Made by a program: the position numbers and the translations under genes. This document shows positions 138 through 58,764 of a stretch of DNA of 64,000 nucleotides, piece after piece. The stretch lies in the IMG/VR virus record IMGVR_UViG_3300047202_000060. One strand, written 5' to 3'. Below the pieces are notes generated by a model that made no database searches, was not told where the DNA came from, and saw only the letters and a program-made list of their open reading frames with translations. Each line of letters opens with the position of its first letter. The stretch's first letter is position 1. The DNA is from a virus. Lineage: Duplodnaviria; Heunggongvirae; Uroviricota; Caudoviricetes.

Positions 138-473
138 ATGTCCTCAGAAAAACAAAAACTCTGGAAGAAAAAAGACTTTCAAGAATACAAAGAAGAATAT
201 AGAAATTACATGAAGAGATATATTCGAGAGTTAAAACATTGGGCTGTCGATAAACTTGGACGAAAATGCTCTGAATGTGGTTTGGTGTCAGAATTTGACT
301 GTGTTTATGATTTCCACCATTTAGAAGAGAATAATAGTTGGAGTAAAGGATTTCAGCGTTCCGCTTCGAATTTGCGGGTCAAAGAACTCTTAAAATGGAA
401 AAAGGCAGACAGTATTCCAGAGGACGTAAAACTTCTTTGTGCTAACTGCCATAGAATTAAACACTCTGATTAA
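138..473 (+). CDS. HNH endonuclease, free-standing, one of only two sizeable plus-strand genes
   Basis: HNH signature DFHHL..N..CANCHRIKH; GGTG 6 nt before ATG; TTATATA box about 33 nt upstream. Confidence 0.6.
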   Translation: MSSEKQKLWKKKDFQEYKEEYRNYMKRYIRELKHWAVDKLGRKCSECGLVSEFDCVYDFHHLEENNSWSKGFQRSASNLRVKELLKWKKADSIPEDVKLLCANCHRIKHSD

Positions 474-2867: not shown

Positions 2868-3356
2868 TCATAGGTTTTCGATTAATTCTTTTGCTTTCTC
2901 TTTGTCTTTCATTCGTGCAAAAAAGTGAATTGTTCTATGGCATTTCCAGCAAAGAGGAACGAAATCCTTTATATGTTTGAAGGTGTAATATGGGTGTTCA
3001 ACGTGTGGTTTGCCGTGTATTTCGTGATATTCAATAGTGTGGGTTCTTCCAAATAAATTGCCCTCTTCGTTACACAAAACGCAAGTTTTTCCCAAAATTT
3101 CTACAACCATAATTCGATATTTTTCCCTTCTACCTTTGAGATATTGAAGGTTTGCTTTTCGGTATTCTGGGTTATTTGCCATTTTTTCAAGTCGGGTTTG
3201 AGTCAATTTCTTATAACGGTCTTTGTGTTTTTGGTAATAGTCTTTTCGGTAGTCTAACATTCTTTGTTTATTCTTTTGGTAATAGTCTGCCGAATATTTC
3301 CTCATATATTTGGGGTCTTTGCGTATTCCTGTTTTCGTCATTTTGATGAACCTCAT
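2868..3356 (-). CDS. HNH endonuclease family A with YYQKHK basic repeats
   Basis: VLCNEEG...YHEIHGKPH...DFVPLCWKCHRTIH; repeat N-terminus RKDYYQKHKDRYKK. Confidence 0.65.
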   Translation of the reverse strand: MRFIKMTKTGIRKDPKYMRKYSADYYQKNKQRMLDYRKDYYQKHKDRYKKLTQTRLEKMANNPEYRKANLQYLKGRREKYRIMVVEILGKTCVLCNEEGNLFGRTHTIEYHEIHGKPHVEHPYYTFKHIKDFVPLCWKCHRTIHFFARMKDKEKAKELIENL

Positions 3357-3393: not shown

Positions 3394-4086
3394 TTATTCG
3401 TCTTTGTCCTTTGCTTTTGCCTTTGCCTTTTGGGCTTTTTGTTCAGTTAAGAATGCTTCCACGCTTCCATTGAGTTCATCGAGCATATTTACGGTGTCTA
3501 GCATTTCGTTATAGCGTTCGTGTCCCTTCATGCTCTCAATATGACTGTTGCAAATTTCTACTGCCTTTCTACATCTCCACAACGTACTCTGAGCCATGCG
3601 TTTGTCTTTCACTCCGTCCTCTGCCATCTTTACGTGTTCCATTATGAAGTTTAGAATGAACTCTGCTTTCTTGTCCTTATAGTTTTCGAAGCCCTCTGGG
3701 GTCGTGAAAATCGGTATGATACGAATACGAGAATCAATATCATCAAACCCTTTTGTTTTCGCTTGAGCCTTTATCCCCTCAATTTCGGCAACTGCAATAT
3801 CCAACTTATCTCCATTCAAAAACCAAGATGACTCAAGATGTTTTACCGCATCAAGTTTGAACTTTAAGGTAAAGGCAATTTTGTTTCTGATAACCCTAGC
3901 CAACTTATTGAACCGTTCGTTTGCATCTCTTTGTTCTTTTGTCAACTTTTTCTTTTGTGCGTCTGTGAGATAGTGCTCACTATAAAGGTCATATTCCAGA
4001 CTCCAAATCGTGGAGCCATAAAGACCTAATTGTTCGAGTGCTTTCTCATCGATTATTAGCTTGTTCGACTTTTTCTGTTCAGACAT
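3394..4086 (-). CDS. hypothetical coiled-coil protein with KAKAKAKDKDE tail
   Basis: 230-aa ORF with normal composition. Confidence 0.5.
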   Translation of the reverse strand: MSEQKKSNKLIIDEKALEQLGLYGSTIWSLEYDLYSEHYLTDAQKKKLTKEQRDANERFNKLARVIRNKIAFTLKFKLDAVKHLESSWFLNGDKLDIAVAEIEGIKAQAKTKGFDDIDSRIRIIPIFTTPEGFENYKDKKAEFILNFIMEHVKMAEDGVKDKRMAQSTLWRCRKAVEICNSHIESMKGHERYNEMLDTVNMLDELNGSVEAFLTEQKAQKAKAKAKDKDE

Positions 4087-4099: not shown

Positions 4100-4115
4100 T
4101 TAATCATATGATTAA
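4100..4115. repeat. 16-bp palindrome TTAATCATATGATTAA
   Basis: inverted repeat copy flanking class I element. Confidence 0.55.
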
Positions 4116-4119: not shown

Positions 4120-4152
4120 CTTATAAAGTTTTCCTAAGAAACTCTATGCTCA
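4120..4152 (-). promoter_or_regulatory. class I element copy overlapping 3' end of HNH gene
   Basis: cttataaagttttcctaagaaactctatgctca; encodes NEHRVS-stop of HNH 4134..4814. Confidence 0.4.
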
Positions 4153-4814
4153 TTTAGTTCATTAATCATTTGATTAACTAATTTGAATATTTCTTCCTTC
4201 TTCTTATTGCCCAAGTTCAAAAGATAATGAGTAACATTATGACATCTACAGCATAGAGGTATAAAATCTTCTAAATGCCTCATAATGTAAGCGTAAGTGT
4301 AAGTATGAAGTTTTCCATGAATCTCATGGTAATGAATTATTCTTTTTGAATTACCACAAATCGAACAAATTTTTCCCAATTTTATTTGAACAATATTTTT
4401 CTGTTCTGAATGGTGTTCTCTTTGATATTTTTCTATTCTTTCTTTGTTTTTTCGATTATATTCTTTCTCGTATTCTTTATGTTCCAGATGCCACATTCTA
4501 CTTCTTTCCTTAGCCTTTTCTCTATGTACTTCTCGATATTGTTTAGCCCATTTATTTATTTGGTTTTTGTGTTGTTCATAATATTCTTTTTTTTGTTGTT
4601 TTACTTCTGGGAGTTGTCGGCGTTCTTTCTCACGGTTAAGAATTTTCTCACGATTTTTCTCATAATATCCTTTGCTTCTATTTCTTTCTTGTTCCAGATG
4701 TTCAAGACGATATTGTTTGGCGTATTCTTTATGTTGTTCCTTATGGGTTTGATTATATTGTTTACCATATTGTTTCATATATTGTTTTTCTTGCGTTGAA
4801 TCCTTATACGGCAT
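4134..4814 (-). CDS. HNH endonuclease family A with long K/Y/H-rich repeat N-terminus
   Basis: ICSICG...YHEIHGKLH...DFIPLCCRCHNVTH; start moved from 4844 to the Met 34 nt downstream of TTATAAA box at about 4849. Confidence 0.6.
   Translation of the reverse strand: MPYKDSTQEKQYMKQYGKQYNQTHKEQHKEYAKQYRLEHLEQERNRSKGYYEKNREKILNREKERRQLPEVKQQKKEYYEQHKNQINKWAKQYREVHREKAKERSRMWHLEHKEYEKEYNRKNKERIEKYQREHHSEQKNIVQIKLGKICSICGNSKRIIHYHEIHGKLHTYTYAYIMRHLEDFIPLCCRCHNVTHYLLNLGNKKKEEIFKLVNQMINELNEHRVS
4162..4177. repeat. 16-bp palindrome TTAATCATTTGATTAA (inside HNH 3' coding region, encodes NQMIN)
   Basis: inverted repeat copy. Confidence 0.5.
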
Positions 4815-4846
4815 TCGACTCACCACTAATATAGAACAACACACTC

Positions 4847-5142: not shown

Positions 5143-5436
5143 TTAATCGGAACCGCAAAGAACACAAGATTTTCCTAGTAACTCGATAACTTTTTGTCTA
5201 AGTTTCAGTCTTGCGTCCTTCCTTCTTTTTACTAATTCTGGGTTCTTCCTTCGCTCTCGTTCTTGTTCTCTTTTGTATTTTTGCATTTTAGGCAAATCTT
5301 TGTAATAAAGTCTATGATGATTTTTGTTTGTTAATTCTTTTCGACATTTTTCAGAACAAACCCTTTGTGTGTTCGATATTTTAGGAAAAATCCTATTACA
5401 TCTCGGACAATAACCATATCCATAATGGTTTCTCAA
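5143..5436 (-). pseudogene. truncated HNH-family paralog: Zn ribbon plus basic repeat retained, nuclease core missing
   Basis: same N-terminal architecture as 31404..31958 and 41223..41687, stops right after LLGKSCVLCGSD where the HNH core would begin. Confidence 0.4.
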
Positions 5437-6701
5437 AGTGGTTCACCACACGGTTTGATATTTTTCTCTCTAAGTTTTTGTTTTTTTTCGGCGATAATTT
5501 TTAGAATCTTATCTTTCTTTTCATTCTTCAATCTATTCTTTAGCGAAGAGAAAACTTTGTGATGAACTTCATAATCCAAATCAAGTTCTTTCAAAGCCTC
5601 AGTTGTTTTTTTGCTCGGATTTAAAAGAATATATTCCTTCATTTTCAAATAAGGGGTTTCACCTTTGCCCCCGATGTCTATTCCTTCCTCTTTAATTATT
5701 TTTTCTAAACCATAATTTTGCATTATGGCATTAAAGAATCTCGGATAATAGTTTTGTAACCATTCAAGATAACCGCTTTGTCTAGCTTGAGGACACGACC
5801 AACAGCCCGTTCGAATCTGATAAAATGTTCCACTATTCAGCTTATAGAATCCCGTTTTTTCACAATTCGTGTTAGCATAAAGTTTGTTATAGTGAAACTT
5901 CATTAACCATTGAAATTTCCAAACATCTTCAATTGTCCAATATGCAATAGGATAAGCACGAAACATTTTATGAGTTTTTGAATAGAAATAACTTCCTCTA
6001 CTGTAAATGAGAGATGACCTATACATATTTTCTTCGAGTCTTAATCCCAGAATTGCAACGTCATAATGCTTAGTAATTTGTTTCATAGGTTTCTTTTTAA
6101 GCAGATAACAACATTTCAAAGTTGCGGTAGATTTTTCTTTTGAGGCAGACGCACGACTGTAAAGAGGCAAACCATATTTTTGAACTACTGTCCTAAATGA
6201 AATACCCCTCTCAGGTGTCGCTCTGATAATTTTGACCCCTAACTCACTTTCTAATTCTTGAATCCTCTTTCGCGTTTCTGGAAATTCCACTAGAGTATCG
6301 CCCCAGATAACTTGAACCCGTTCGTCTATTATTGCGTCTTTGAAAAGTTGCACACAACATTCGCTGTCTATGCCCCCAGAATAAGCGATATAGATTTTCT
6401 TTCCTTTGTTTTCGTCAAGAATCTTTTGAACAAGAGTTTTAGAAAAACAGTATTTCTCTTCGAATGTAGAAGCAAACAGCTTTTTCCGCGCGTCAATTTT
6501 TTCGTGATATTTTTTATTGCCACAAACACAAGTCTGATAAGAATGTTGACAGTCTTTGCACACGGGGACATCTGAATATTCAAGTCCCTCTCTTTTTAAG
6601 AATCCTCTTCTTTCGGAATTATTCATTTTATGATAATTTGACTGAATCCAAAAATCCTTTTTGCCTTTCCAATTTATCCGTTCGTCTTTCCAGCTAGACA
6701 T
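5433..6701 (-). CDS. PP-loop ATP pyrophosphatase, PAPS-reductase/DndC-like family, with N-terminal Cys cluster
   Basis: SGGIDS PP-loop motif in IAYSGGIDSECCVQ; CKDCQHSYQTCVCG N-terminal; 422 aa. Confidence 0.6.
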   Translation of the reverse strand: MSSWKDERINWKGKKDFWIQSNYHKMNNSERRGFLKREGLEYSDVPVCKDCQHSYQTCVCGNKKYHEKIDARKKLFASTFEEKYCFSKTLVQKILDENKGKKIYIAYSGGIDSECCVQLFKDAIIDERVQVIWGDTLVEFPETRKRIQELESELGVKIIRATPERGISFRTVVQKYGLPLYSRASASKEKSTATLKCCYLLKKKPMKQITKHYDVAILGLRLEENMYRSSLIYSRGSYFYSKTHKMFRAYPIAYWTIEDVWKFQWLMKFHYNKLYANTNCEKTGFYKLNSGTFYQIRTGCWSCPQARQSGYLEWLQNYYPRFFNAIMQNYGLEKIIKEEGIDIGGKGETPYLKMKEYILLNPSKKTTEALKELDLDYEVHHKVFSSLKNRLKNEKKDKILKIIAEKKQKLREKNIKPCGEPL

Positions 6702-6737
6702 TTTCTAATCACCCGTTGATAAATAAGAATACAAACG

Positions 6738-6763
6738 AGTATTTAAAGGTTATGGTTTGAACC
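6738..6763 (-). promoter_or_regulatory. class II promoter element (aaccataaccTTTAAATA in gene orientation)
   Basis: gagtatttaaaggttatggtttgaacc; GGGTGAT SD 6 nt before ATG at 6701. Confidence 0.4.
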
Positions 6764-6923
6764 CCAAATATTCTAATTCTTCGGGGGAATATTGTTTTAG
6801 CCATTTTTTAAAATGACGTTTAGCGTGACAATTTTTGTCAAGTAAAATAATTTCACCATTCAAATATCTTGTTTGAATGTTTTCAAAGTTCTCAACTCCA
6901 ATAAAAAGGGGTAGTTTTGGGTT

Positions 6924-7820
6924 TTAGCTCTCTTCCTTCTGCTTTTTCAGCTTCTCGACATCTATCTCGTCCGAATCTTCGAAGAAGCTACGGAACAGGT
7001 TCCTTTCCTCTTTTGCGGTGTAAAGTGAGCTTGCAATGTCTATGATGTCCTCTTCCGACATCTTTGCTTTATAGAGTTTGCCGTAGTTTATTAGGTTTCC
7101 TGTCGTGAGGGGCGTTCGAAGTTTTCCGTTCTCGTATTCGGTTCGGGTCTTTTTGCCAATTTCAACGAACTTCGATGCAAATTCGTATGCTTTGCCATCA
7201 TTGCCAGCGAATTTCTTTATCAAATCACGCTCTTTCTGGGGGCTAAGGTAGTCAATTATCAAACCTTCGAAGCGTCTAATCGTTGCAATGTTTTCGATGA
7301 ACGTCCCAGAGTAGCCCGATTTTTCGCTAGGGTTATACGAGATGACTAGGTAGTGCTGTGCTGTGCGCTGAAATTCCTTCTTGTATTCTGGAATCCAGAC
7401 CGAACCCCTAAAGTCCGCTAGGCTTTCCAGAAGTGAAATTATCGATGGTTCCGCATAGTTGAACCCGTCTATGTAAAGTAAACCCTTCGGCGAATTGAGC
7501 CATTGAATTATTATTCCTTCTCTTGTTTCCGTGTTGCCTTTGCTCAATGTGTCACACGCCAGCAAATCCCATTTTGTCACATCTCTCGTGAGCACAATTT
7601 CGAAAAGTGGAACCTCTAACAACTCTGCCAATTTATGAACCAAAGTTGTTTTGCCCGTCCCCGTTTCGCCGACTAATCGCAAGTTTCCGACAACCTCAAG
7701 AATCGCCCGTGACTTTTCAATGTAGTTATGTTCGTCCACGAACTCTATGCCTTTGACGTAGATGCCAGCACCTTCAAGTGCTGATTCAACCTTCGCATGG
7801 ATTTTTTCAAATTCAGACAT
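6924..7820 (-). CDS. MoxR/CobS-like AAA+ ATPase
   Basis: Walker A GETGTGKTT; AAA_5-like layout; paired with the vWA gene upstream. Confidence 0.7.
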   Translation of the reverse strand: MSEFEKIHAKVESALEGAGIYVKGIEFVDEHNYIEKSRAILEVVGNLRLVGETGTGKTTLVHKLAELLEVPLFEIVLTRDVTKWDLLACDTLSKGNTETREGIIIQWLNSPKGLLYIDGFNYAEPSIISLLESLADFRGSVWIPEYKKEFQRTAQHYLVISYNPSEKSGYSGTFIENIATIRRFEGLIIDYLSPQKERDLIKKFAGNDGKAYEFASKFVEIGKKTRTEYENGKLRTPLTTGNLINYGKLYKAKMSEEDIIDIASSLYTAKEERNLFRSFFEDSDEIDVEKLKKQKEES

Positions 7821-7852
7821 TTTTATTACCTATCTGAGTATAACGTCCGCGT

Positions 7853-7890
7853 CCTTAATAAACCTTTGCACAGAAAGTACGTGTTCATTC
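7853..7890 (-). promoter_or_regulatory. class I element copy (TTAATAAA variant)
   Basis: ccttaataaacctttgcacagaaagtacgtgttcattc; box about 34 nt upstream of ATG 7820. Confidence 0.4.
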
Positions 7891-7893
7891 AAG

Positions 7894-7909
7894 TTAATCA
7901 TCTGATTAA
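7894..7909. repeat. 16-bp palindrome TTAATCATCTGATTAA
   Basis: inverted repeat copy. Confidence 0.55.
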
Positions 7910-7958
7910 AATTCCAGAAAAATCGAGTTCCGCCGAACCGCAAGTTGCCCTAAAAAAC

Positions 7959-8393
7959 TTAGATAGTCTTTTGTTTTACAAATTCTTGAATTTCGTTTAA
8001 TTCCATTTTACAAATCTGATGAAGAAAGTGAAAACCTTTATGGCAAATATGGCAGAGAGGAATAAAATCCTCTTTGTGGTTTGCATAATACGATAAGCTA
8101 ATCGGGTGTTTTTTCCAATGAATTTCGTGAAGCATTAACCCCTGTTTCGAATCACATGATAAACACTTATCTGGAAATAATGCTTTTACCTTTTCACGAA
8201 ATAGCTTTTTCCTTTTGGATTCTTTTTCACGATTTTTTGAATAGTATGTTTGGTTTCTAAGTTTTCCAGCTTCGTGATTTTCTACGTAGTTGTTTCTGTG
8301 TCTTGCGTTTATTTTTTCTTTGTTTCGTGCGTGATAATCTCTTTGGGCTTTCCTTTGTTTTTCTTTGTCTTTATATGGCAATTCCATCACCAC
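7959..8393 (-). CDS. HNH endonuclease family A
   Basis: CLSCDS...LHEIHWKKH...DFIPLCHICHKGFH; basic N-terminus. Confidence 0.65.
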   Translation of the reverse strand: MVMELPYKDKEKQRKAQRDYHARNKEKINARHRNNYVENHEAGKLRNQTYYSKNREKESKRKKLFREKVKALFPDKCLSCDSKQGLMLHEIHWKKHPISLSYYANHKEDFIPLCHICHKGFHFLHQICKMELNEIQEFVKQKTI

Positions 8394-8417
8394 AACCTTT
8401 ATATAATACTATTCTAC

Positions 8418-8439
8418 TATTTAAAGGTTATGGTTTGGC
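8418..8439 (-). promoter_or_regulatory. class II promoter element
   Basis: ctatttaaaggttatggtttggc, 25 nt upstream of ATG 8393. Confidence 0.4.
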
Positions 8440-10205
8440 TATTTCTGGGTTTCCACGTTAAGGTAAACTTGAAGGAAGGCTTTTGGTAACTCAGAAATTT
8501 CCTTAATACGGGTTCGTGAAACCTTTAAGTTACGAACTTTGTTTGCAAAAGTTTCCACATTATCAGCATCACAGAATCCAATAAAGCATACTTCAATTCC
8601 ACTACGGGTGTACTGTTCGATTAAGTTCTCTGCTTTTTGCTCGTCATCACCGTTAAAACAGAAATCGCTTGCTATTACAAGAATCTTTCTGCGTTCGCCC
8701 TTTATGGAATTGAACATTTTTAAATGTGCCTCAAGCAAAACGGAAACTTCAGTTCCCCCAGCATTTACGGAAATCGCCCCGATTCTTGCTCGTGTGTTTT
8801 CGAATGTTTCGAAATGTGACTTTACTCGTTGACTATCAGCACCGAACGCGGAAATTGAGAAACCATAATCATCAACGTAATGACCGAAAACTTCGTTAAG
8901 AATTGTCGTTATTTTCTGTGCTTGGTTTCTATCAACTGAACCCGAATAATCGAATAGAAAAGCTATAGCTACTTGTTCTTTTTCGAACTTCGTGGTCGTT
9001 CGCAAATACACATTACGAACGGTTCCGCGAAAAGAGTTAGTGTAGATTCGTGGAACTATCGGTGACATCATTTTGCCCCTTTTCTGGAATATCTCCCGTG
9101 ACACTCGTGGTTTCATTCTAGTTTTCAAAAGGTTAAGTAATTCTGTAATTTCTGGTTTACACTCATCGAGTAACTTTGAGTATGCTTCAAAGTCAGGCTC
9201 AGGACTAGGTATTTCGATTCCCGTGCCTTCGCCAGCACCCGAACCTTTCTGTAAATCTTCAAGATGTTTCTTTTTGTCCTCTTCTTGTTGTTCTTCCTTC
9301 TCTGCTTGTTCCAGAAGTTGTTTCAATTTATCCGAAATTTTGCCCTTTATGTTTCCCCCTCTACGAGAAACAACGTATTCTTTTGTGGTATAGTCAGCTT
9401 TAAGGTGTTTAGCTACTAAATCATAAATTGCTTGGCATGAACGAATGATGTCCAACTTAACGCGCTGATATTTGGTTCCCTCTAGGATTTTCAGGGCTTC
9501 CTCTGTGTCCTTTCGAGTATCGGGGCTAAGTTTGTCCCACAATTCTGTGCATTTAGCTTCATATAGACCTTCATTGCACAAAATTGCAACCATGTAAACC
9601 CCTTCTTGTTGTCCAGCTTGAATTGGCATGGTTATATTTGTGTTTTCTCCCAAGCTTTCACCTTTCGGGAGAATTGAAGATGTCCGTATCTGAGGCTTTT
9701 CTATCGTGTTGTCAATCATATCCTTCAATATCAAGTTCGCCAAAAGAAGCCTTTTTCCGACATCGAACCTATATCTGAGGATAATAAAGTGATTAATGCG
9801 TTTATCTTCGACCAAATTGCAAACTTCATGAGCCAGCTTATAGTAACCACGCTGGCGTTTGATTTTCGTTGTCCAATTGTTGAAAAACTCCCAATTTGGC
9901 TTTGTAAGGATTAAATGACCGCATTCGTGAGCCATATCTCCGTCCAGAATCTTTCTGAACAATCTCGGAGAAGTTTTCACGAAATCGGGATAACTTTGCA
10001 AACTTAGAGAAATTTCAAAATTTTCCATGTTAAAAGCAGAAGTTGGTTGTTCTGGAATATACTTGACACGAATCCGTTTGTCCTTTGTTATGGCAATGGC
10101 TAAGTTTCGCATCTCATCGAGAATTTTTGAGAATGCCCCATTATCTTTCTGTGGTTTCTTCTTTTGGTAACTCATTCTCTCACGCCACAATAAGAAGCTA
10201 ACCAC
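8439..10205 (-). CDS. vWA-domain protein (CobT/NorD-like) with N-terminal HExxH motif
   Basis: MIDAS motif DYSGSVD in AIAFLFDYSGSVD; MAHECGHLIL HExxH; 588 aa; follows the AAA+ gene. Confidence 0.65.
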   Translation of the reverse strand: MVSFLLWRERMSYQKKKPQKDNGAFSKILDEMRNLAIAITKDKRIRVKYIPEQPTSAFNMENFEISLSLQSYPDFVKTSPRLFRKILDGDMAHECGHLILTKPNWEFFNNWTTKIKRQRGYYKLAHEVCNLVEDKRINHFIILRYRFDVGKRLLLANLILKDMIDNTIEKPQIRTSSILPKGESLGENTNITMPIQAGQQEGVYMVAILCNEGLYEAKCTELWDKLSPDTRKDTEEALKILEGTKYQRVKLDIIRSCQAIYDLVAKHLKADYTTKEYVVSRRGGNIKGKISDKLKQLLEQAEKEEQQEEDKKKHLEDLQKGSGAGEGTGIEIPSPEPDFEAYSKLLDECKPEITELLNLLKTRMKPRVSREIFQKRGKMMSPIVPRIYTNSFRGTVRNVYLRTTTKFEKEQVAIAFLFDYSGSVDRNQAQKITTILNEVFGHYVDDYGFSISAFGADSQRVKSHFETFENTRARIGAISVNAGGTEVSVLLEAHLKMFNSIKGERRKILVIASDFCFNGDDEQKAENLIEQYTRSGIEVCFIGFCDADNVETFANKVRNLKVSRTRIKEISELPKAFLQVYLNVETQK

Positions 10206-10245: not shown

Positions 10246-10261
10246 TTAATCAACTGATTAA
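10246..10261. repeat. 16-bp palindrome TTAATCAACTGATTAA
   Basis: inverted repeat copy. Confidence 0.6.
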
Positions 10262-10803: not shown

Positions 10804-11235
10804 TCAAAGTAGGGGTATATAACCTAGCCACTCATAAACTTTGTTGTTTATTTCTGTCATACCTTCACCTGTCCAGACATTATGCCATATAGATGTATGA
10901 AGTTCTTCTGGAATGTAGATAACAAAATTCTTATCTATATGATGGGCTTCTAAATCAGCAAACGGTTCGTTTAACGAAATAAAACCTAAACCACGTCTTT
11001 TGTGCTGATGTTTTATCCATATTTCTCTAGTTTGTTCTGGATGATTTTTTATCCAAGTTTTTGCTTGCTTTTTCACTTTCTCTTTATTAAGTTGATAATA
11101 TTTTTTATAACGTTTTTTCGCTTGTTCTTTATGTGTTTGAGCATATTTTACATTTTCAATTTTTTTTCTTAATATTACATCTGGACGTTTGCGATATTCT
11201 TGCATATATTCTTTTCTTTGTTTTTTCGTCCACAT
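10804..11235 (-). CDS. HNH endonuclease family B (HHID..IPxELHxxIWHN type) with basic repeat N-terminus
   Basis: GLGFISLNEPF..EAHHIDKNF..IPEELHTSIWHN..EINNKVYEWLG. Confidence 0.65.
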   Translation of the reverse strand: MWTKKQRKEYMQEYRKRPDVILRKKIENVKYAQTHKEQAKKRYKKYYQLNKEKVKKQAKTWIKNHPEQTREIWIKHQHKRRGLGFISLNEPFADLEAHHIDKNFVIYIPEELHTSIWHNVWTGEGMTEINNKVYEWLGYIPLL

Positions 11236-12043: not shown

Positions 12044-12198
12044 TCATATATATCATAATTATGACTAAGAGAATTACGTATTTCCTTTTTTCCACAATTA
12101 CGACAAATACAATATCCTTTTTGTTCCAAATATGAAGGTATCTTGCATTTTCCCTCGCAATGAAATGGTTTACGGCAAGTGCAACATATTCTTCTCAT
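12001..12198 (-). CDS. Cys-rich small protein, EKVSFT tail
   Basis: CCTCRKPFHCEGKC...CICRNCG. Confidence 0.5.
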   Translation of the reverse strand: MRRICCTCRKPFHCEGKCKIPSYLEQKGYCICRNCGKKEIRNSLSHNYDIYDCQKGFQKEKVSFT

Positions 12199-12566
12199 GT
12201 GAATTCTACTTTCTCCTTAGAGCACAAAGTTTGAAGTTGTTTATATCCTTCACAGATTTCTAGCGTCATGTCAATAATTTCGAATCCTGTCGGGTTTCCT
12301 AACGGGTCTTCCACTTGAATACCTCGCCCATAACAAGTACCCGAAGCTATTATGTGTTCGTCTTTCCAGATTTCATAATCGTATTGATAACTGTCGTTTT
12401 CTTTGTCAATATCTCCGAATCCCCCAATTGGAAGAATAATATCTAACTTTTTATCCCAGAGTTTTTCCCGTTTAAGAATGAACATGATGTTTCCCCTTAT
12501 AGTCTTGTCTGAAATTTCTTCGAATATATCTTCAAGTTCAGCTTCAAACTCAGGTTCTTTAGTCAC
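12195..12566 (-). CDS. hypothetical protein, paralog of 13462..13818, GTG start, EKVEFT tail
   Basis: EFEAELEDIFE...FILKREKLWD...YDYEIWK shared with 13462..13818. Confidence 0.55.
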   Translation of the reverse strand: MTKEPEFEAELEDIFEEISDKTIRGNIMFILKREKLWDKKLDIILPIGGFGDIDKENDSYQYDYEIWKDEHIIASGTCYGRGIQVEDPLGNPTGFEIIDMTLEICEGYKQLQTLCSKEKVEFT

Positions 12567-12802
12567 GTAAACTCAACCTTTTCTTTAGAGGTTTTTGTGT
12601 CTCTTTGTCTTAGCCATTTTTCAAAATAGAAATTCCAACTATGCCGACTTGTAGAGGCACTAGAGAGAGAAGTAAAGTCTCTCATAAAGTCTTTTCTTTC
12701 CTCAGACTTTTCCCATTCTTCTTCGTGAATAGAACAAAGAAAGACATTATCTGGAATTATATATGTTTGATCTTTCTCATATTTACAAACGGGACATGTC
12801 AT
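12563..12802 (-). CDS. small Zn-finger protein, EKVEFT tail
   Basis: MTCPVCKYE...CSIHEEEW. Confidence 0.5.
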   Translation of the reverse strand: MTCPVCKYEKDQTYIIPDNVFLCSIHEEEWEKSEERKDFMRDFTSLSSASTSRHSWNFYFEKWLRQRDTKTSKEKVEFT

Positions 12803-13056
12803 GTGAATTGAACCTCTTCTTTAGCTACTCTTTTATCCCAGAGATTAGGTAGTTCCCTGATAAAAACAGCCCATGTTGCATGATGTCCATTTTTGCCATT
12901 CGGATATTTCTTTACAATCTCTTTTCCATACTTGTGATTGAAACTTAACCACTTTACGTGACATTTTGCACATAAAGCTCTTTTTATAACGTCATCTTCC
13001 TCATTGTATTCTGGAATTGTAACACCACACTTTAGGCAATCCGTTCTCAATTTCAT
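12799..13056 (-). CDS. Zn-ribbon protein, EEVQFT tail; track ORF trimmed to cassette ATG
   Basis: MKLRTDCLKCG...CAKCH; ATG inside cassette at 13054-13056 overlapping upstream stop. Confidence 0.5.
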   Translation of the reverse strand: MKLRTDCLKCGVTIPEYNEEDDVIKRALCAKCHVKWLSFNHKYGKEIVKKYPNGKNGHHATWAVFIRELPNLWDKRVAKEEVQFT

Positions 13057-13307: not shown

Positions 13308-13465
13308 GTGAACAACACCTTCTCTTTTCGTTCGGGTTCTTTTCTACACAGAATCTTATAGAGAAAATCGGGGTTGTTAGCACCACATCCGCGTTCGTGA
13401 CAAGTTTTATAGCAGAAGTTTGCACACCCAGAGCAATGGCATTTTTCACAGTCAGGATTATTCAA
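13304..13465 (-). CDS. unannotated 53-aa Cys-rich protein with TTG start and EKVLFT tail
   Basis: LNNPDCEKCHCSGCANFCYKTCHERGCG...KEKVLFT; TTGA overlap at 13462, ATGA overlap at 13304. Confidence 0.45.
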   Translation of the reverse strand: MNNPDCEKCHCSGCANFCYKTCHERGCGANNPDFLYKILCRKEPERKEKVLFT

Positions 13466-13818
13466 GTAAATTCTACCTTCTCCTTACAGCAAAGTTCTAT
13501 AAGTTCTTTATATCCCGTCATCACTTCCAGAGTCATATCTTGAATTTCTGAAATGTTAAAATCTGTTATCACAGTCCCGTAACAAGTTCCAGCGCAAACA
13601 CATTTATTGCCTTTCCAAATTTCATAGTCAGACTGATAAGCGTCATTCGTGACATCTATATCTTTGAATGCCCCAATAGGAAAGATTATTTCAAATCGAC
13701 TGTCCCAGAGATGTTCACGTTTCAAAATAAATATGATATTTTTTTCTACTGAAACGTCTGAATATCTCTCGAAAATATCCGAAAGTTCTGCCTCAAACTC
13801 TGCCTCTTCAGGTATCAT
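13462..13818 (-). CDS. hypothetical protein, paralog of 12195..12566, EKVEFT tail
   Basis: EFEAELSDIFE...FILKREHLWD...SDYEIWK. Confidence 0.55.
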   Translation of the reverse strand: MIPEEAEFEAELSDIFERYSDVSVEKNIIFILKREHLWDSRFEIIFPIGAFKDIDVTNDAYQSDYEIWKGNKCVCAGTCYGTVITDFNISEIQDMTLEVMTGYKELIELCCKEKVEFT

Positions 13819-14096
13819 GTAAAATCAACCTTCTCTTTTATTGTGAATTTCGTACTCATAAAACTCTTCCATCTTTTAGACCACGTTCTAGTAAAGTCCG
13901 ACATCTTCACTTCTCCTTTACTGTGGTAGAAATGATTCCACAACAACAAACAATCGGGGCAAAGAATTACTTGTTCTAAGTTTCTTCCAATTTCGTCAAC
14001 GGGAGCAACTATTCTTTTGTCATCAGTAAATTTTCCACACTTTCCACATTTGACAATTTTTTGAGGAACCCATTTAGGATAAGGGGGGCTAGTCAT
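13815..14096 (-). CDS. Zn-ribbon protein, EKVDFT tail
   Basis: CGKCGKF...CPDC. Confidence 0.5.
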   Translation of the reverse strand: MTSPPYPKWVPQKIVKCGKCGKFTDDKRIVAPVDEIGRNLEQVILCPDCLLLWNHFYHSKGEVKMSDFTRTWSKRWKSFMSTKFTIKEKVDFT

Positions 14097-15008: not shown

Positions 15009-15043
15009 CTTATAAATCTTTAGGTAAAATCACCATGCTCGAT
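15009..15043 (-). promoter_or_regulatory. class I element copy encoding C-terminus of HNH-B gene
   Basis: cttataaatctttaggtaaaatcaccatgctcgat encodes IEHGDFT-stop. Confidence 0.4.
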
Positions 15044-15556
15044 TAACCATTCGAACGCTTTATCGTTTATCTCAGTCATTCTCTGTCCTGTATGAATATT
15101 ATGCCATATTGAACGATGTAATTCTTTAGGAATATAGACAACTAACTCGAAGTCTATATGATGCGCTTCTGAACCGACAAATAAATCATTAAGAGGATTA
15201 AATCCTAAATTTCGTTCTCTCTTTGAGTGTTGCTTTCGCCAATATCCCTTAAATTGCTCTGAGTGTTCAAGACGATATTCTCTCTTATAATTTGGGTGTT
15301 TAATACACCATTTTTTCTTACGTTCTCTCTCATATTCTGGGTGAGTTTGAGAATATTGTTTGTTGTATTCATTTATTTGTTTCTTGCGATTTAATTTGGA
15401 TTTTTTGTTAATTTCTCTTGCACGTTCTGGATTTTCTATTTGCCATCTTATCGCAGTTGCACTTAATTGAGTTTTGTGGACTTGACGATATTGTTTGTCA
15501 TGTTCTTTATTTCGCTTATGCCATTCCATCATATAGTTAGGGTCTTTACGTAGCAT
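15020..15556 (-). CDS. HNH endonuclease family B with basic repeats; start moved from 15574
   Basis: NLGFNPLNDLF..EAHHIDFELVVYIPKELHRSIWHN..AFEWLIEHGDFT; TTATAAA box at about 15590. Confidence 0.6.
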   Translation of the reverse strand: MLRKDPNYMMEWHKRNKEHDKQYRQVHKTQLSATAIRWQIENPERAREINKKSKLNRKKQINEYNKQYSQTHPEYERERKKKWCIKHPNYKREYRLEHSEQFKGYWRKQHSKRERNLGFNPLNDLFVGSEAHHIDFELVVYIPKELHRSIWHNIHTGQRMTEINDKAFEWLIEHGDFT

Positions 15557-15587
15557 TCTATTCACAAATAACAATAATGTGTTTCAG

Positions 15588-18222: not shown

Positions 18223-19083
18223 TTAGAGAAAGACCCGTTCAGCGTGAATATGTCCGTTTCCTTTACTGTCAAACTCGTAAGGTTTGCCCGACTGAACGAA
18301 TGCTGGAAAGTAGATTTTCATAGATTGTTCCGTGTTTTCTTTGTCAATCCACAGAAACTCACCTTTACGCAAACCCATAAGAGCGTTAACCACTCGTTCA
18401 CCCTTTTCTGTCCCGAACATACGCTTTAGCTTCTGCCTGTCGTTATCACCTGAGATTGAGCCAATAAGCATATATTTTGTACGCTCCACTATTCGAGTAG
18501 AAATATCGCTTAAACGTTGTCCTATTCCTATGAAGAATTGTCCGTAATTTCGACTTTCAGACCAAATCTTAAGCCAAAACTCAGATCGCTTATAGGAACC
18601 GAACAAGTTCTGAATCTCTTCAAGAACGTAAATTCGACTAAGTTTTGGTTGTCCGTTATTTTCGTTCATTGACTCTCGTTGAATATAGTAATCTTGCCCG
18701 ACCAAGTTTTCTATCAAGCTAACATTCATTGTTGTTGACACGAATCCCAAATCAAGCAGAACAATTTTTTCGTCCTCTGGAATACTAGGCTTCTTTGTTA
18801 CATCAACATAAGGTATTCGGTCAAATTTTTGCTTCCAAACGTTAGCAGAATCTCCTATACGAAGTATAACTTTTCCATCTTTGTATTTTTGTGAATTCAT
18901 TATGAATCTAACTATATGCATTGCAACAGTTGTCTTACCTGTGCCCCCCAAACCAATTATGAGCAGTTTTCCGTTCTCAGTCAAACTTTGCATTATGTTT
19001 TCAAGTAACTTTTCGCTCATTTTTTGAGCGTCAGATTGCTCAGATATTTCTATTGCAATTTTATTTTCGGTTTCTTCCGTCAT
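18223..19083 (-). CDS. P-loop NTPase (possible DNA-translocating or packaging-type ATPase)
   Basis: Walker A IIGLGGTGKTT; hydrophobic-D Walker B candidate VLLDLGF; 286 aa. Confidence 0.5.
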   Translation of the reverse strand: MTEETENKIAIEISEQSDAQKMSEKLLENIMQSLTENGKLLIIGLGGTGKTTVAMHIVRFIMNSQKYKDGKVILRIGDSANVWKQKFDRIPYVDVTKKPSIPEDEKIVLLDLGFVSTTMNVSLIENLVGQDYYIQRESMNENNGQPKLSRIYVLEEIQNLFGSYKRSEFWLKIWSESRNYGQFFIGIGQRLSDISTRIVERTKYMLIGSISGDNDRQKLKRMFGTEKGERVVNALMGLRKGEFLWIDKENTEQSMKIYFPAFVQSGKPYEFDSKGNGHIHAERVFL

Positions 19084-21306: not shown

Positions 21307-22203
21307 TTATGGAGATGTCGAATTGCTTGGAAGTTGGAAGAACGGAATTACACCGCTTCCGTAATAGGTCGGTAGTTTGCCGTCCCATTGTTGCAAATAG
21401 AGGTATTGAAGATACTCTGGGCTAACATTTAGTTGCTGTGCGATTAATTGTAATGCTTGAGCGTCTGCATTTGCCTTTGTCAAAGTTGCATATGCGTATG
21501 CGTCTGCCGAAATTCTTGTCATGTTTGCTTGTGCTTCTTGTTTGAGAATTTCTTGTTCTTGCTGATAGCGAATTATTTCAAGATTGTTCTTCTCTTCGTT
21601 TGCTTTTTGCTCGGCTGTCACTTTGTTCTCAATTGCTTCGTTGAACTTTGCTGAAAATTCAAAGTTTTCTAGCTGAACATCGATAACGGTTATGTGATAT
21701 TGCGAAATTCGTGAACGAAGTGTATCTAAGAAGAGAATCTTTACTGCATCTCGTTTTTGAAGCAATTCCTCTGCTTTGAAACTAGAGACTGAGGCTTTTA
21801 GACTTTCTTGCATGTTGTTGATTATTACTCGTGTTTCCCAATCGGTGCGAAGTGTTCTGTAAATGTCTTCTACAAATCCCGATTCGATATGATAGTTTAT
21901 CGAAACTGTAGTCATAACCTCTTGCAAATCGTTTGTTCCACATGACATGTTTGCTAACTCTGCCTTATGAATCTGCAAGTCTATGTTCACTATGTCCTGT
22001 CCAAACCACGGATTAACCCAATGAATGCCTTCACCTGTCGTACCCGTGATTTGTCCAAATTGTGTAGAAACACCTATGTAACCACTCGGTACTGTTCTGA
22101 TTCCAAGAATAGCGGTTCCAATCAAAAGCATACAAAGAACTACAAAGATAAGAATTCGAACGATACTCCATTCGCCGTCTTTATTCTTTAATATATTTCT
22201 CAT
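21307..22203 (-). CDS. SPFH/band-7 (prohibitin/HflK-like) membrane protein
   Basis: N-terminal TM helix, then PSGYIGV...band-7 core, long coiled-coil tail. Confidence 0.7.
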   Translation of the reverse strand: MRNILKNKDGEWSIVRILIFVVLCMLLIGTAILGIRTVPSGYIGVSTQFGQITGTTGEGIHWVNPWFGQDIVNIDLQIHKAELANMSCGTNDLQEVMTTVSINYHIESGFVEDIYRTLRTDWETRVIINNMQESLKASVSSFKAEELLQKRDAVKILFLDTLRSRISQYHITVIDVQLENFEFSAKFNEAIENKVTAEQKANEEKNNLEIIRYQQEQEILKQEAQANMTRISADAYAYATLTKANADAQALQLIAQQLNVSPEYLQYLYLQQWDGKLPTYYGSGVIPFFQLPSNSTSP

Positions 22204-58759: not shown

Positions 58760-58764
58760 ATCAC

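What the first reader, a model, noticed from the sequence alone, without database searches (positions are those of the whole stretch)
5433..10205. AAA+ ATPase, vWA(HExxH) and PP-loop ATPase gene trio
A MoxR/CobS-like AAA+ ATPase (GETGTGKTT) is directly followed by a 588-aa vWA protein (MIDAS DYSGSVD). That protein carries an N-terminal HExxH motif (MAHECGH). The pair is preceded by a 422-aa PP-loop (SGGIDS) PAPS-reductase/DndC-like enzyme with a Cys cluster. CobS/CobT-like pairs are known in large viruses but are of unknown role. The added metalloprotease motif and the adjacent PP-loop enzyme hint at a chaperone-activated modification or processing system, possibly DNA or tRNA modification.
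Basis: partly seen in the sequence, partly recalled or inferred. Interest (0 to 1): 0.65.

Follow-up and report, generated by a model that had tools for sequence, protein, structure and literature searches.

The report
Viral CobS/CobT-like chaperone-protease module
A probably archaeal virus carries a known kind of ATP-driven motor-plus-adaptor protein pair whose adaptor keeps an intact protease motif.

Summary
All three proteins and their motifs are real, but the proposed trio is not a unit. All genes lie on the minus strand. The order is vWA, an HNH endonuclease gene, the AAA+ gene, then the PP-loop gene.

HExxH, a downstream NxxED motif and the full MIDAS are invariant in 24 homologs. Both HExxH and DxSxS occur in 96 of 111 distant full-length relatives.

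The vWA protein has the same layout as CobT: a peptidase-like N domain, two linker helices, a disordered "shaft" and a MIDAS vWA domain. It is homologous to the viral "CobT-like / metallopeptidase-vWA" proteins already described next to MoxR/CobS-like ATPases in phages and archaeal viruses.

In ten distinct related loci the AAA+ and vWA genes always travel with a 230-aa protein (window 3394-4086), sometimes with overlapping stop and start codons. The PP-loop gene is present in only two loci. It has its own promoter, lacks the operator shared by the other three genes, and sits in a variable gap with homing endonuclease genes. Its homologs occur alone in other mobile elements and in Bacillus phages.

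Verdict: a divergent variant of a known viral MoxR/zincin-vWA module with a new partner gene, beside an unrelated PAPS-reductase-like accessory gene. Function is untested.

The parts
8439..10205 (-). CobT-like adaptor with three parts: an N-terminal zincin-like domain (HExxH + NxxED), a linker with a disordered 'shaft', and a C-terminal MIDAS vWA domain. The longest ORF is 588 aa. The likely real start is the ATG at 10175 (578 aa).
9915..9929 (-). HExxH motif (HECGH, residues 93-97).
   Evidence: Invariant in 24 homologs. Coordinates checked.
9804..9818 (-). NxxED motif (NLVED, residues 130-134). It is the candidate third metal ligand of a gluzincin site, and an intein insertion site in homologs.
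   Evidence: N130, E133 and D134 are invariant. The motif NxxEDxR[IV] recurs in distant relatives. Inteins lie at about residue 129 in P0012, P0016, P0019 and P0149.
9195..9245 (-). Invariant Gly-rich loop GSGAGEGTGIEIPSPEP between the two linker helices. It is an intein site in homologs.
   Evidence: G325, G329, I332, P335 and P337 are invariant. pLDDT is low. Inteins lie at residue 328 in P0005, P0020, P0051 and P0149.
9006..9089 (-). Disordered, conserved segment directly before the vWA domain (residues 373-400). It is the positional equivalent of the CobT 'shaft' and the NorD 'finger', which enter the AAA+ pore.
   Evidence: pLDDT is below 50 for residues 373-398. The CobT shaft is Q373-R413, before MIDAS D422 (bioRxiv 10.64898/2026.07.21.739949). 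This assignment is an inference.
8937..8951 (-). MIDAS DxSxS motif (DYSGS, residues 419-423). T485 and D514 complete the site.
   Evidence: D419, S421, S423, T485 and D514 are invariant. Coordinates checked.
7959..8393 (-). Free-standing HNH-type homing endonuclease gene inserted between the vWA and AAA+ genes. It is not part of the module.
   Evidence: The HNH motif is visible in the translation. Relatives have a LAGLIDADG gene (L001), a different HNH-like gene (L012) or nothing (L013, L014) at this junction.
6924..7820 (-). MoxR-class (AAA_5) AAA+ ATPase, 298 aa. Walker A is GETGTGKTT (7644-7670). Walker B is the deviant YIDGFNYAE (7449-7475).
   Evidence: Pfam and PHROG hits. PDB phmmer: midasin AAA domains, CbbQ 1.4e-12, NorQ 5e-8, CobS 4e-6. 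Alignment A5. Comparison with the phage homolog.
5433..6701 (-). Stand-alone enzyme of the PAPS/APS-reductase superfamily (PP-loop), 422 aa. A neighbour, not a member of the module.
   Evidence: Pfam PAPS_reduct. All NCBIfam equivalogs score below cut-off. Family alignment A4 shows SGGxDS, CC...CxxC, an N-terminal Cys4 and a C-terminal PCGEPL. Present in only 2 of 10 loci. Own TATA-like box TTTAAATA at 6740-6747.
3394..4086 (-). p230: a conserved 230-aa alpha/beta-plus-helical protein of unknown fold family. It is the third member of the module.
   Evidence: Found next to the AAA+ and vWA genes in all 10 distinct related loci. Its stop or start codon overlaps that of the AAA+ gene in L004, L007 and L015. 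Alignments A2 and A3. AF2 model, pLDDT 86.
10247..10260 (.). Palindrome TAATCAACTGATTA, 72 nt upstream of the vWA ATG at 10175.
7895..7908 (.). Palindrome TAATCATCTGATTA, 75 nt upstream of the AAA+ start codon.
4101..4114 (.). Palindrome TAATCATATGATTA, 15 nt upstream of the p230 start codon. A second copy at 4163-4176 lies 77 nt upstream.

Best explanation
The functional unit is a three-gene viral module made of the MoxR-class AAA+ ATPase (6924-7820), the CobT-like zincin-vWA adaptor (8439-10205) and p230 (3394-4086). The PP-loop gene is an unrelated accessory gene that landed, together with homing-endonuclease genes, in the variable gap between the AAA+ and p230 genes.

Proposed mechanism, inferred by analogy with NorQ/NorD, CobS/CobT and midasin:
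1. The AAA+ protein forms a ring.
2. The disordered segment before the adaptor's vWA domain enters the ring pore.
3. The adaptor's MIDAS site grips an acidic residue of a client protein.
4. Nucleotide-dependent movement of the ring twists or pulls the adaptor and remodels the client.
5. The intact HExxH...NxxED (gluzincin-type) site in the adaptor's N domain cleaves the client or a bound partner.

p230 is either that client or a third subunit that occupies the place CobN has in cobaltochelatase. The most likely biological role is maturation or assembly of a viral protein complex, as proposed for jumbo phages and shown in part for Acidianus two-tailed virus (ATV).

Shown here: domain identities, motif conservation, synteny, the shared operator, and the independence of the PP-loop gene. 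Inferred: ring-shaft docking, peptidase activity, the identity of the client, and the role in assembly.
For: Module membership:
- AAA+, vWA and p230 co-occur in all 10 distinct related loci: L001, L004-L007, L012-L015 and L020.
- In the distant relatives the three genes are contiguous. The AAA+ and p230 genes overlap stop and start codons in L004, L007 and L015.
- In the close clade each of the three genes carries the palindrome TAATCA-NN-TGATTA 72-94 nt upstream of its start.

Adaptor:
- HExxH, NxxED and the full MIDAS are invariant.
- HExxH plus DxSxS occur together in 96 of 111 distant full-length representatives.
- The AF2 topology is one helix, a three-stranded sheet, eight helices, two long linker helices, a short strand, a disordered segment and then vWA. 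This matches the published description of CobT: an M48C-like N domain, beta0/alpha0'/alpha0, the shaft and VWA.
- The N domain is homologous to that of a T4-like phage 'CobT' (hhalign 92.8%, E 4e-7).
- Full-length structural matches include many viral CobT-like proteins, among them HVTV-1, HCTV-2 and ATV ORF892.
- Inteins sit at three conserved motifs of the adaptor in homologs. This is typical of conserved, functionally important genes.

Literature:
- MoxR + metallopeptidase-vWA pairs in jumbo phages are proposed to act in virion assembly and processing (PMC7824862).
- ATV p618/p892 interact with each other and with tail proteins (PMC4124505).
- The NorD finger enters the NorQ pore (PMC13036017).
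Against: - No experiment exists for any member of this family. Peptidase activity of the HExxH domain has never been shown for viral CobT-like proteins.
- The AAA+ protein lacks the Walker B glutamate (YIDGFNYAE) in 8 of 10 family members, so it may hydrolyse ATP poorly and act as a switch or scaffold rather than a motor.
- p230 gives only generic helical-bundle structural matches, so its role as client or subunit rests on synteny alone.
- No virion genes were identified next to the module.
- The shared palindrome occurs at 18 sites in the window, so it marks a broad regulon rather than a private operon.
- Only +/-10 kb of each related contig was examined for the PP-loop gene.
Confidence: 0.55

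Rival explanations
1. Cobaltochelatase hijack. The viral CobS/CobT-like pair docks onto a host CobN-type subunit and boosts cobalamin (or another metallo-tetrapyrrole) synthesis during infection. This has been proposed for the cobST clusters of tailed bacterial and archaeal viruses.
For: - Liu et al. 2021 (PMC8651126) propose exactly this for the cobST clusters of haloarchaeal and other tailed viruses.
- The adaptor has the same domain order as structurally characterised CobT.
- Some distant relatives of the adaptor pass Pfam CobT and CobT_C (P0247 and P0259).
- The AAA+ protein matches phrog_249 'porphyrin biosynthesis'.
Against: - The AAA+ protein scores 25 bits against TIGR01650 CobS, whose cut-off is 558.
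- It is nearer to CbbQ and NorQ (E 1.4e-12 and 5e-8) than to CobS (4e-6), with weak per-domain matches to midasin.
- The adaptor has no Pfam CobT or CobT_C hit. Against a genuine CobT it aligns only weakly, and only over the vWA domain (hhalign 7.7%).
- In the only alignment obtained, which is not significant in that region, Brucella CobT has no HExxH at the equivalent place, whereas the viral family keeps it invariant.
- The virus carries its own obligatory third gene, p230, instead of relying only on a host subunit.
- The Walker B glutamate is missing.
Confidence: 0.15
2. AAA+, HExxH-vWA and the PP-loop enzyme form one chaperone-activated modification or processing system acting on DNA or tRNA.
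For: - The genes are physically close in the window and, 2.5 kb apart, in L012.
- PAPS-reductase-fold enzymes (DndC, SspD, BrxP) do modify DNA. The protein gives weak PADLOC hits to them, E 1e-10 to 8e-6.
Against: - The PP-loop gene is absent from 8 of 10 loci with the pair.
- Its presence is patchy even among close relatives: present in L012, absent in L013 and L001.
- Homologs occur alone, next to an integrase or an MCM gene in other elements. They also occur in 27 phage records, mostly Bacillus phages, and the two contexts inspected show no AAA+ or vWA neighbour.
- It has its own TATA-like promoter, preceded by a T-rich stretch after the AAA+ stop codon, and no shared operator.
- It is flanked by HNH genes in a variable gap.
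Confidence: 0.04
3. Host-takeover or counter-defence protease. The module is an ATP-gated, MIDAS-targeted metalloprotease that removes a host protein such as an immune factor. The neighbouring PP-loop enzyme is a separate anti-defence gene.
For: - MoxR-vWA modules are components of prokaryotic conflict systems (PMC7159879, listed).
- PAPS-reductase homologs cluster in anti-defence hotspots of phages, and one is reported to help evade Dnd (PMC13551039).
- The surrounding region is rich in mobile HNH genes.
Against: - The module is a conserved syntenic core of this virus group rather than a variable cargo.
- It is intein-rich, as core genes tend to be.
- It gives no PADLOC hit for the vWA protein and only marginal ones for the AAA+ protein.
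Confidence: 0.2

Closest known systems
MoxR AAA+ / metallopeptidase-vWA pair of T4-like 'group 2.2' jumbo phages and Kyanoviridae (Iyer et al. 2021, PMC7824862). An example is the Ochrobactrum phage vB_OspM_OC genes annotated 'CobT' and 'cobalt chelatase subunit'.
   Same: - The gene order is the same: vWA, then AAA+.
- The N-terminal HExxH...NxxEDxRI domain is homologous (hhalign 92.8%).
- Both have a MIDAS DxSGS and an AAA_5 partner (28% identity).
- Function is untested in both.
   Different: - tblastn finds no similarity to any of 50,697 phage records.
- The adaptor here is about 110 aa shorter.
- The AAA+ protein lacks the Walker B Glu that the phage protein has.
- There is an extra conserved partner, p230, with no phage homolog.
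- The host is probably archaeal.
cobST two-gene cluster of tailed archaeal and bacterial viruses (Liu et al. 2021, PMC8651126). Examples are HVTV-1, HCTV-2 and HHTV-2.
   Same: - Foldseek gives full-length matches to the HVTV-1 and HCTV-2 vWA proteins and to the two HHTV-2 proteins that carry the split gene.
- The pair architecture is the same.
   Different: - Sequence similarity is below detection by Pfam CobT and CobT_C.
- The proposed chelatase role is not supported here by the family scores.
Aerobic cobaltochelatase CobS-CobT-CobN (Brucella structures; bioRxiv 10.64898/2026.07.21.739949).
   Same: - The adaptor's domain order matches: an M48C-like N domain, two linker helices, a disordered shaft directly before the MIDAS vWA domain, and a clade-7 AAA+ partner.
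   Different: - The family cut-offs are not met.
- HExxH is retained here, but was not seen in Brucella CobT in the only, non-significant, alignment obtained.
- There is no CobN gene. p230 is present instead.
NorQ/NorD, CbbQ/CbbO and midasin (Rea1): MoxR-class AAA_5 motors with MIDAS vWA adaptors.
   Same: - CbbQ (E 1.4e-12) and NorQ (5e-8) are the best single-domain sequence matches of the AAA+ protein. The midasin matches are weak per domain.
- A pore-inserted finger mechanism is documented for NorQD (PMC13036017).
   Different: - Those adaptors have no zincin domain.
- Their clients are cellular enzymes or the pre-ribosome.
- Their Walker B motif is intact.
Acidianus two-tailed virus p618 (MoxR) / p892 (vWA).
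   Same: - It is an archaeal-virus MoxR-vWA pair with experimental evidence for mutual interaction and a role in virion (tail) development (PMC4124505).
- ORF892 is a Foldseek hit (E 1e-5).
   Different: - The proteins are much larger.
- No peptidase domain is reported (PMC7824862).
- There is no p230 homolog.
Phage and mobile-element 'PAPS reductase' genes (phrog_424), assimilatory APS reductases, and DndC/SspD/BrxP. This comparison concerns the PP-loop neighbour only.
   Same: - PAPS_reduct fold and SGGxDS PP-loop.
- The CC pair aligns with the CC of APS reductases 2goy and 7lhr. CC...CxxC is invariant.
- It is 25-30% identical to 'PAPS reductases' of Bacillus phages and to an ORF of a Nitrosopumilaceae virus.
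   Different: - It scores below every curated equivalog cut-off: CysH 61 vs 154, DndC 18 vs 290.
- It has an extra N-terminal CxxC...CxC domain.
- The C-terminal tail is PCGEPL rather than ECGLH (the latter from my own knowledge of CysH/APR).
- The substrate is unknown.

Membership tests
MoxR-class AAA+ ATPase (Pfam AAA_5) | Pfam AAA_5 domain above the gathering score | tested here: met
   50.7 bits against a cut-off of 22, E 2.5e-13.
MoxR-class AAA+ ATPase (Pfam AAA_5) | Walker A motif GxxGxGKT | tested here: met
   GETGTGKTT at 7644-7670. G51, T53, G54, G56, K57 and T59 are invariant in A5.
MoxR-class AAA+ ATPase (Pfam AAA_5) | Walker B motif hhhhDE with a catalytic glutamate | tested here: not met
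   The motif is YIDGFNYAE. Gly replaces Glu in 8 of 10 family members. The aligned midasin and phage homologs have DE.
MoxR-class AAA+ ATPase (Pfam AAA_5) | Sensor 1 Asn and an Arg finger | tested here: met
   N163 (ISYNP) and R182/R183 (RRF) are invariant in A5. Their assignment to these roles is by position, which is an inference.
CobS (cobaltochelatase motor subunit, TIGR01650) | Equivalog-level sequence match | tested here: not met
   25.3 bits against a cut-off of 558.55. PDB CobS matches at E 4e-6, weaker than CbbQ and NorQ.
CobT (PF06213 CobT + PF11775 CobT_C) | Pfam CobT and CobT_C domains | tested here: not met
   Only PF00092 VWA is found at E<=0.01. hhalign against a genuine CobT gives probability 7.7%, over the vWA domain only.
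CobT (PF06213 CobT + PF11775 CobT_C) | Architecture: peptidase-M48C-like N domain, linker helices, pore-inserting shaft, MIDAS vWA | tested here: inconclusive
   The secondary-structure order of the AF2 model matches the published description. No direct structural superposition on CobT could be run.
CobT (PF06213 CobT + PF11775 CobT_C) | Works with a CobN catalytic subunit | not testable with these tools
   There is no CobN gene in the window or the related loci. The host is unknown.
vWA / MIDAS domain | DxSxS ... T ... D metal-ion-dependent adhesion site | tested here: met
   [not shown]
Gluzincin-type metallopeptidase (viral 'metallopeptidase-vWA' N domain; DUF2201_N-like) | HExxH plus a downstream Glu ligand, conserved across the family | tested here: met
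   H93, E94, H97, N130, E133 and D134 are invariant. The motif pair recurs in distant relatives and in phage proteins. One distant relative (P0225) gives a weak DUF2201_N hit, E 0.005.
Gluzincin-type metallopeptidase (viral 'metallopeptidase-vWA' N domain; DUF2201_N-like) | Zn binding and peptidase activity | not testable with these tools
   This needs biochemistry.
Assimilatory PAPS/APS reductase (CysH) | PAPS_reduct fold with a PP-loop SGGxDS | tested here: met
   PF01507 at 83.9 bits against a cut-off of 22.5. S108, G110, D112 and S113 are invariant.
Assimilatory PAPS/APS reductase (CysH) | Equivalog-level match to CysH or APS reductase | tested here: not met
   NF002537 61.4 against 154. 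TIGR00434 48 against 165. TIGR02055 47.7 against 235.
Assimilatory PAPS/APS reductase (CysH) | CC...CxxC Fe-S motif (APS-reductase type) and a C-terminal catalytic Cys tail | tested here: inconclusive
   C197, C198, C300 and C303 are invariant. CC aligns with the CC of 2goy and 7lhr. A C-terminal PCGEPL-like tail is present in only about half of the homologs.
DndC / SspD / BrxP DNA-phosphorothioation enzymes | Family-level match and partner genes (DndA/B/D/E, Ssp, BREX) | tested here: not met
   TIGR03183 scores 17.7 against a cut-off of 290. PADLOC hits are weak. No partner genes appear in any locus.
Proposed AAA+/vWA/PP-loop trio as one system | Conserved co-occurrence of the three genes | tested here: not met
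   The PP-loop gene is present in 2 of 10 distinct loci that carry the pair, and p230 in 10 of 10.

The most novel reading that the evidence does not exclude
A previously undescribed three-subunit machine of uncultured, probably archaeal, viruses. An AAA+ ring that has naturally lost its Walker B glutamate holds a CobT-like adaptor with a catalytically active zincin domain. A virus-specific 230-aa protein takes the place that CobN, NorB or Rubisco occupy in cellular MoxR-vWA systems. If so, viral 'CobT' proteins would be ATP-gated, MIDAS-targeted proteases, and the cellular chelatase adaptor CobT would be an inactivated relative of that protease.
Probability: 0.25. Interest if true: 0.65.

Novelty: new variant of a known kind. 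Interest (0 to 1): 0.38.

Why it matters
CobS/CobT-like pairs are among the most widespread "auxiliary" genes of tailed phages and archaeal viruses. They are routinely annotated as cobalamin-synthesis genes without any test.

This lineage argues for a different reading. The protease motif is as conserved as the MIDAS site, inteins target the conserved motifs of the adaptor, and the virus supplies its own third partner. That gives a concrete handle for finding the client: p230 and the residues that could dock on the MIDAS site.

The result also shows that a tempting gene trio in one genome dissolves once related genomes are compared. The PAPS-reductase-like gene belongs to the separate, equally unresolved class of mobile-element PAPS reductases.

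Tried and rejected
- tblastn of the vWA protein and of p230 against 50,697 phage records found nothing.
- A scan of viral contigs with the PP-loop protein found nothing.
- A profile search of A1 against PDB sequences found only generic integrin I-domains.
- PADLOC gave no defence-system assignment for the vWA protein and only marginal ones for the AAA+ protein.
- The afdb50 fold library was unavailable.
- I considered a Borg-like or plasmid origin for the window. The element is not identified: IMG/VR lists three related contigs as viral, but no capsid, portal or terminase gene was found in the window, and none of the large ORFs screened matched one.
- I considered that the PP-loop gene might be co-transcribed with the AAA+ gene. 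I rejected this because a T-rich stretch follows the AAA+ stop codon and the PP-loop gene has its own TATA-like box.

Full report
**1. What is in the sequence**

The window is A+T-rich (32-40% G+C). In this region all genes lie on the minus strand. Read in the direction of transcription, the order is:

- a 588-aa vWA protein (10205..8439);
- a 144-aa HNH-type ORF (8393..7959);
- a 298-aa AAA+ ATPase (7820..6924);
- a 422-aa PP-loop protein (6701..5433);
- an HNH fragment (5436..5143);
- another HNH gene (4844..4134);
- a 230-aa ORF, here called p230 (4086..3394).

The domain assignments are significant:

- AAA_5, E 2.5e-13, and phrog_249 (CobS-type "porphyrin biosynthesis"), E 7e-27;
- VWA, E 5e-8;
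- PAPS_reduct, E 1.8e-23, and phrog_424, E 1e-27.

Two descriptive points need correcting. The transcriptional order is the reverse of what was written. The AAA+ and vWA genes are separated by an HNH gene, so they are not "directly" adjacent. The database gene call for the vWA protein (P0001, 100% identical, 578 aa) starts at the ATG at 10175.

**2. The adaptor (vWA protein)**

The large protein search returned 57 homologs, all from metagenomes or MAGs, on contigs of up to about 148 kb. In an alignment of 24 of them (35-76% identity) the following are invariant:

- H93, E94 and H97 (HExxH);
- N130, E133 and D134 (NxxED);
- a Gly-rich loop (G325, G329, I332, P335, P337);
- the complete MIDAS site (D419, S421, S423, T485, D514).

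An exhaustive profile search found 254 relatives, 64 of them below 1e-30. Of 111 full-length representatives, 96 have HExxH in the first 300 residues together with DxSxS. The more distant ones repeat the pattern HExxH - about 35 aa - NxxEDxR[IV][DE].

HExxH with a downstream Glu is the signature of gluzincin peptidases (my own knowledge of the clan).

The AF2 model (pLDDT 79) has this order of elements: one helix, a three-stranded sheet, eight helices, two long linker helices, a short strand, a disordered conserved stretch (373-398), and then the vWA fold. This is the order reported for Brucella CobT: an M48C-peptidase-like CobT_N, then beta0/alpha0'/alpha0, the "shaft" Q373-R413 that enters the CobS ring, and a VWA domain with MIDAS D422/S424/S426 (bioRxiv 10.64898/2026.07.21.739949).

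Other structural and profile comparisons agree:

- Foldseek against viral models gives full-length matches to many phage and archaeal-virus "CobT-like / VWFA" proteins. Examples are Gordonia GMA2, GMA7 and GMA3, Brevibacterium Cantare, HVTV-1, HCTV-2, HHTV-2, Thermus P74-26 and ATV ORF892.
- hhalign aligns the N domain, including HExxH and NxxEDxRI, with the "CobT" of the T4-like Ochrobactrum phage vB_OspM_OC (92.8%, E 4e-7). That phage protein also lies just upstream of an AAA_5 gene.
- Against a genuine Pfam-positive CobT (Roseobacter phage CRP-810), only the vWA domain aligns, and weakly.

The protein itself has no Pfam CobT or CobT_C hit. It therefore works like a CobT and is a remote relative of it. 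By the curated criteria it is not a member of that family.

**3. The motor (AAA+ protein)**

By whole-sequence E-value the top solved-structure matches are midasin, but that score sums several weak per-domain matches (best about 1e-3). The best single-domain matches are CbbQ (1.4e-12) and NorQ (5e-8). CobS is weaker (4e-6). It scores only 25 bits against the CobS equivalog, whose cut-off is 558.

Walker A, the sensor-1 Asn and the RRF arginines are invariant in ten family members. The Walker B motif is different: it reads YIDGFNYAE, with Gly where the catalytic Glu should be, in eight of the ten. The aligned phage homolog has LDEFD. An invariant Glu lies five residues downstream. Whether this ring is a slow switch or uses a relocated base is unexplained.

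**4. What travels with what**

I fetched the surroundings of homologs from ten distinct genomes and searched them with the window's proteins.

- AAA+ and vWA genes co-occur in 10 of 10 loci. So does p230.
- In the more distant genomes (L004-L007, L015, L020) the three genes are contiguous, as AAA-p230-vWA or p230-AAA-vWA. The AAA+ and p230 genes overlap stop and start codons in L004, L007 and L015.
- In the close clade (window, L001, L012-L014) the order is vWA-AAA-(variable gap)-p230.
- The PP-loop gene is found only in the window and in L012, inside that variable gap. It is missing from L001 and from L013, whose vWA protein is as close to the window's as L012's is.
- The vWA-AAA junction is likewise occupied by an HNH gene (window), a LAGLIDADG gene (L001), a different HNH-like gene (L012) or nothing (L013, L014).

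PP-loop homologs (38-58% identical) occur in other elements, none with AAA+ or vWA neighbours:

- next to an integrase in a 1.2-Mb contig, and next to an MCM helicase;
- at 25-30% identity in 27 phage records, mostly Bacillus phages, and in a Nitrosopumilaceae spindle-shaped virus.

**5. Regulatory signals**

A palindrome, TAATCA-NN-TGATTA, occurs 18 times in the window against 0.6 expected. It lies 72-94 nt upstream of the start codons of the vWA, AAA+ and p230 genes in all five genomes of the close clade. It never lies upstream of the PP-loop gene.

The PP-loop gene instead follows a T-rich stretch after the AAA+ stop codon. It has its own TTTAAATA box about 40 nt before its ATG and a GGGTGA Shine-Dalgarno-like element.

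The palindrome is a genome-wide operator rather than a private one. The evidence it gives is that the three genes share a regulon and the PP-loop gene does not.

**6. p230**

Invariant acidic residues (D13, E31, D33, E150, E194, D197) could serve as MIDAS ligands. That is speculation.

**7. Inteins**

Several vWA homologs are 890-1227 aa long and carry Intein_splicing and LAGLIDADG_3 domains. The insertions map to about residue 129 (the NxxED motif), residue 328 (the Gly-rich loop) and about residues 420-439 (the MIDAS site). One protein carries two inteins.

Inteins characteristically sit in conserved functional sites of important genes (my own knowledge). This supports the functional relevance of all three motifs. 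It also suggests the gene is core to these viruses rather than dispensable cargo.

**8. The PP-loop protein**

It belongs to the PAPS/APS-reductase superfamily but falls below every curated equivalog cut-off (CysH 61 against 154; DndC 18 against 290). The family alignment shows:

- an invariant SGGxDS;
- an invariant CC...CxxC, with the CC pair aligning with the CC of the APS reductases 2goy and 7lhr;
- a nearly invariant N-terminal CxxC...CxC;
- in about half of the members, a C-terminal PCGEPL-like tail that recalls the catalytic ECGLH tail of sulfonucleotide reductases (my own knowledge).

PAPS-reductase homologs are a recurrent, uncharacterised feature of phages, archaeal viruses and plasmids. 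They cluster in variable, anti-defence-rich regions, and one has been reported to help evade Dnd (PMC11437467; PMC13551039). The gene here fits that picture: a stand-alone accessory gene, not an ordinary CysH, and not coupled to the AAA+/vWA pair.

**9. Mechanism and comparison**

Two viral descriptions already cover the pair:

[quoted passage not shown] They proposed virion assembly with proteolytic processing, citing ATV p618/p892 (PMC7824862; PMC4124505).
- Liu et al. reported cobST clusters across tailed viruses and proposed hijacking of host CobN (PMC8651126).

The mechanistic template comes from NorQD, where a finger from the VWA domain enters the pore and a twisting force acts on a linker (PMC13036017), and from CobSTN.

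I favour a chaperone-protease reading over the chelatase reading for five reasons:

- the zincin site is invariant;
- the ATPase is nearer to CbbQ and NorQ than to CobS;
- the curated CobS and CobT criteria fail;
- the virus brings its own third gene;
- in the only alignment obtained, which is not significant in that region, Brucella CobT shows no HExxH.

None of this is experimental.

**10. Origin**

Related contigs are listed as viral in IMG/VR, and one lies in an archaeal MAG. TATA-like boxes, GGTG Shine-Dalgarno-like elements, a KaiC/RadA-like ATPase, a TopoVI-B fusion among the homologs (P0057) and a ribosomal protein S30e gene in L015 point to an archaeal host. No capsid, portal or terminase gene was identified in the window. 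The host assignment is therefore tentative.

**11. Verdict**

The CobS/CobT-like reading and the conservation of HExxH hold, while the three-gene "system" with the PP-loop enzyme does not. What is there is a divergent variant of a known viral MoxR / zincin-vWA module with a new obligatory partner (p230) and a deviant Walker B motif. Next to it lies an independent mobile-element PAPS-reductase-like gene. Interest is moderate.

Noticed in passing
window, 42 sites on the minus strand, e.g. 1561-1576, 12799-12814, 13815-13830, 34136-37784: A stereotyped gene-junction motif, GGTNNANTTYAC[A/T/G]TGA, occurs 42 times against 0.5 expected. It is an SD-like GGTG plus an overlapping start and stop (xTGA). 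It forces the recurrent C-terminal '-V-x-F-T' on dozens of small Cys-rich ORFs. This implies long chains of translationally coupled genes.
   Followed up: partly
window 523, 1283, 4101, 4163, 7895, 10247, 10314, 10695, 22330, 26612, 32799, 33371, 38183, 47900, 56718 (plus 3 sites with one mismatch): The 14-bp palindrome TAATCA-NN-TGATTA occurs 18 times against 0.6 expected. It lies at a fixed distance of about 72-94 nt upstream of several start codons. It is conserved in relatives L001 and L012-L014, with 11-19 copies per 22 kb. It is probably the operator of a virus-encoded regulator.
   Followed up: partly
window 138-473(+), 2868-3356, 4134-4844, 5143-5436, 7959-8393, 10804-11235, 15020-15574: At least six HNH-type endonuclease paralogs lie within 16 kb. 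They have Lys/Arg/Tyr-rich repeat N-termini. There is also one truncated copy (NinG-like Zn ribbon only). They sit at junctions that differ between related genomes, as expected for homing endonucleases.
   Followed up: partly
homologs P0005, P0012, P0016, P0019, P0020, P0051, P0149, P0170, P0172 (loci L001-L003 for P0012): Inteins are inserted at three or four different conserved sites of the vWA gene: the NxxED motif, the Gly-rich loop, the MIDAS site, and one site between residues 101 and 122. P0149 carries two inteins.
   Followed up: yes
window 7449-7475: The AAA+ Walker B motif reads YIDGFNYAE. The catalytic Glu is replaced by Gly in 8 of 10 family members, and an invariant Glu lies 5 residues downstream.
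   Followed up: partly
window 55241-63575: A glycan-related gene cluster: UDP-GlcNAc 2-epimerase (56380-57531), two GT2/Anp1-like glycosyltransferases (59532-60587 and 62235-63575) and a Kelch beta-propeller protein (61249-62226).
   Followed up: no
window 21307-22203, 22473-23912, 26623-27558, 43301-44278, 53940-54824, 18223-19083: Other annotated genes: an SPFH/Band7 protein, a protein with four divergent InlB B-repeats, a KaiC/RadA-like ATPase, an RNA ligase, a trypsin-like protease and a P-loop NTPase (weak nSTAND3/ResIII hits). The last two ATPases are syntenic with the module in most relatives.
   Followed up: no
L015 12411-14225; L012 2977-3813; P0057: Relatives encode a ribosomal protein S30e homolog, a dual-specificity phosphatase and BubE (L015), and a TnpB/Cas12f-like protein (L012). 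One homolog cluster (P0057) joins a vWA fragment to Topo VI-B/HATPase domains. These hint at an archaeal host.
   Followed up: no
window 12195-12566 and 13462-13818: Two paralogous ORFs of about 120 aa (MT/IPE.EFEAEL..IFE...) lie within the array of small coupled genes. Both match single genes in L006 and L013.
   Followed up: no
window 6830-6845: A different palindrome, TTGACAAAAATTGTCA, lies in the AAA-to-PP-loop intergenic region, upstream of the PP-loop TATA-like box.
   Followed up: no
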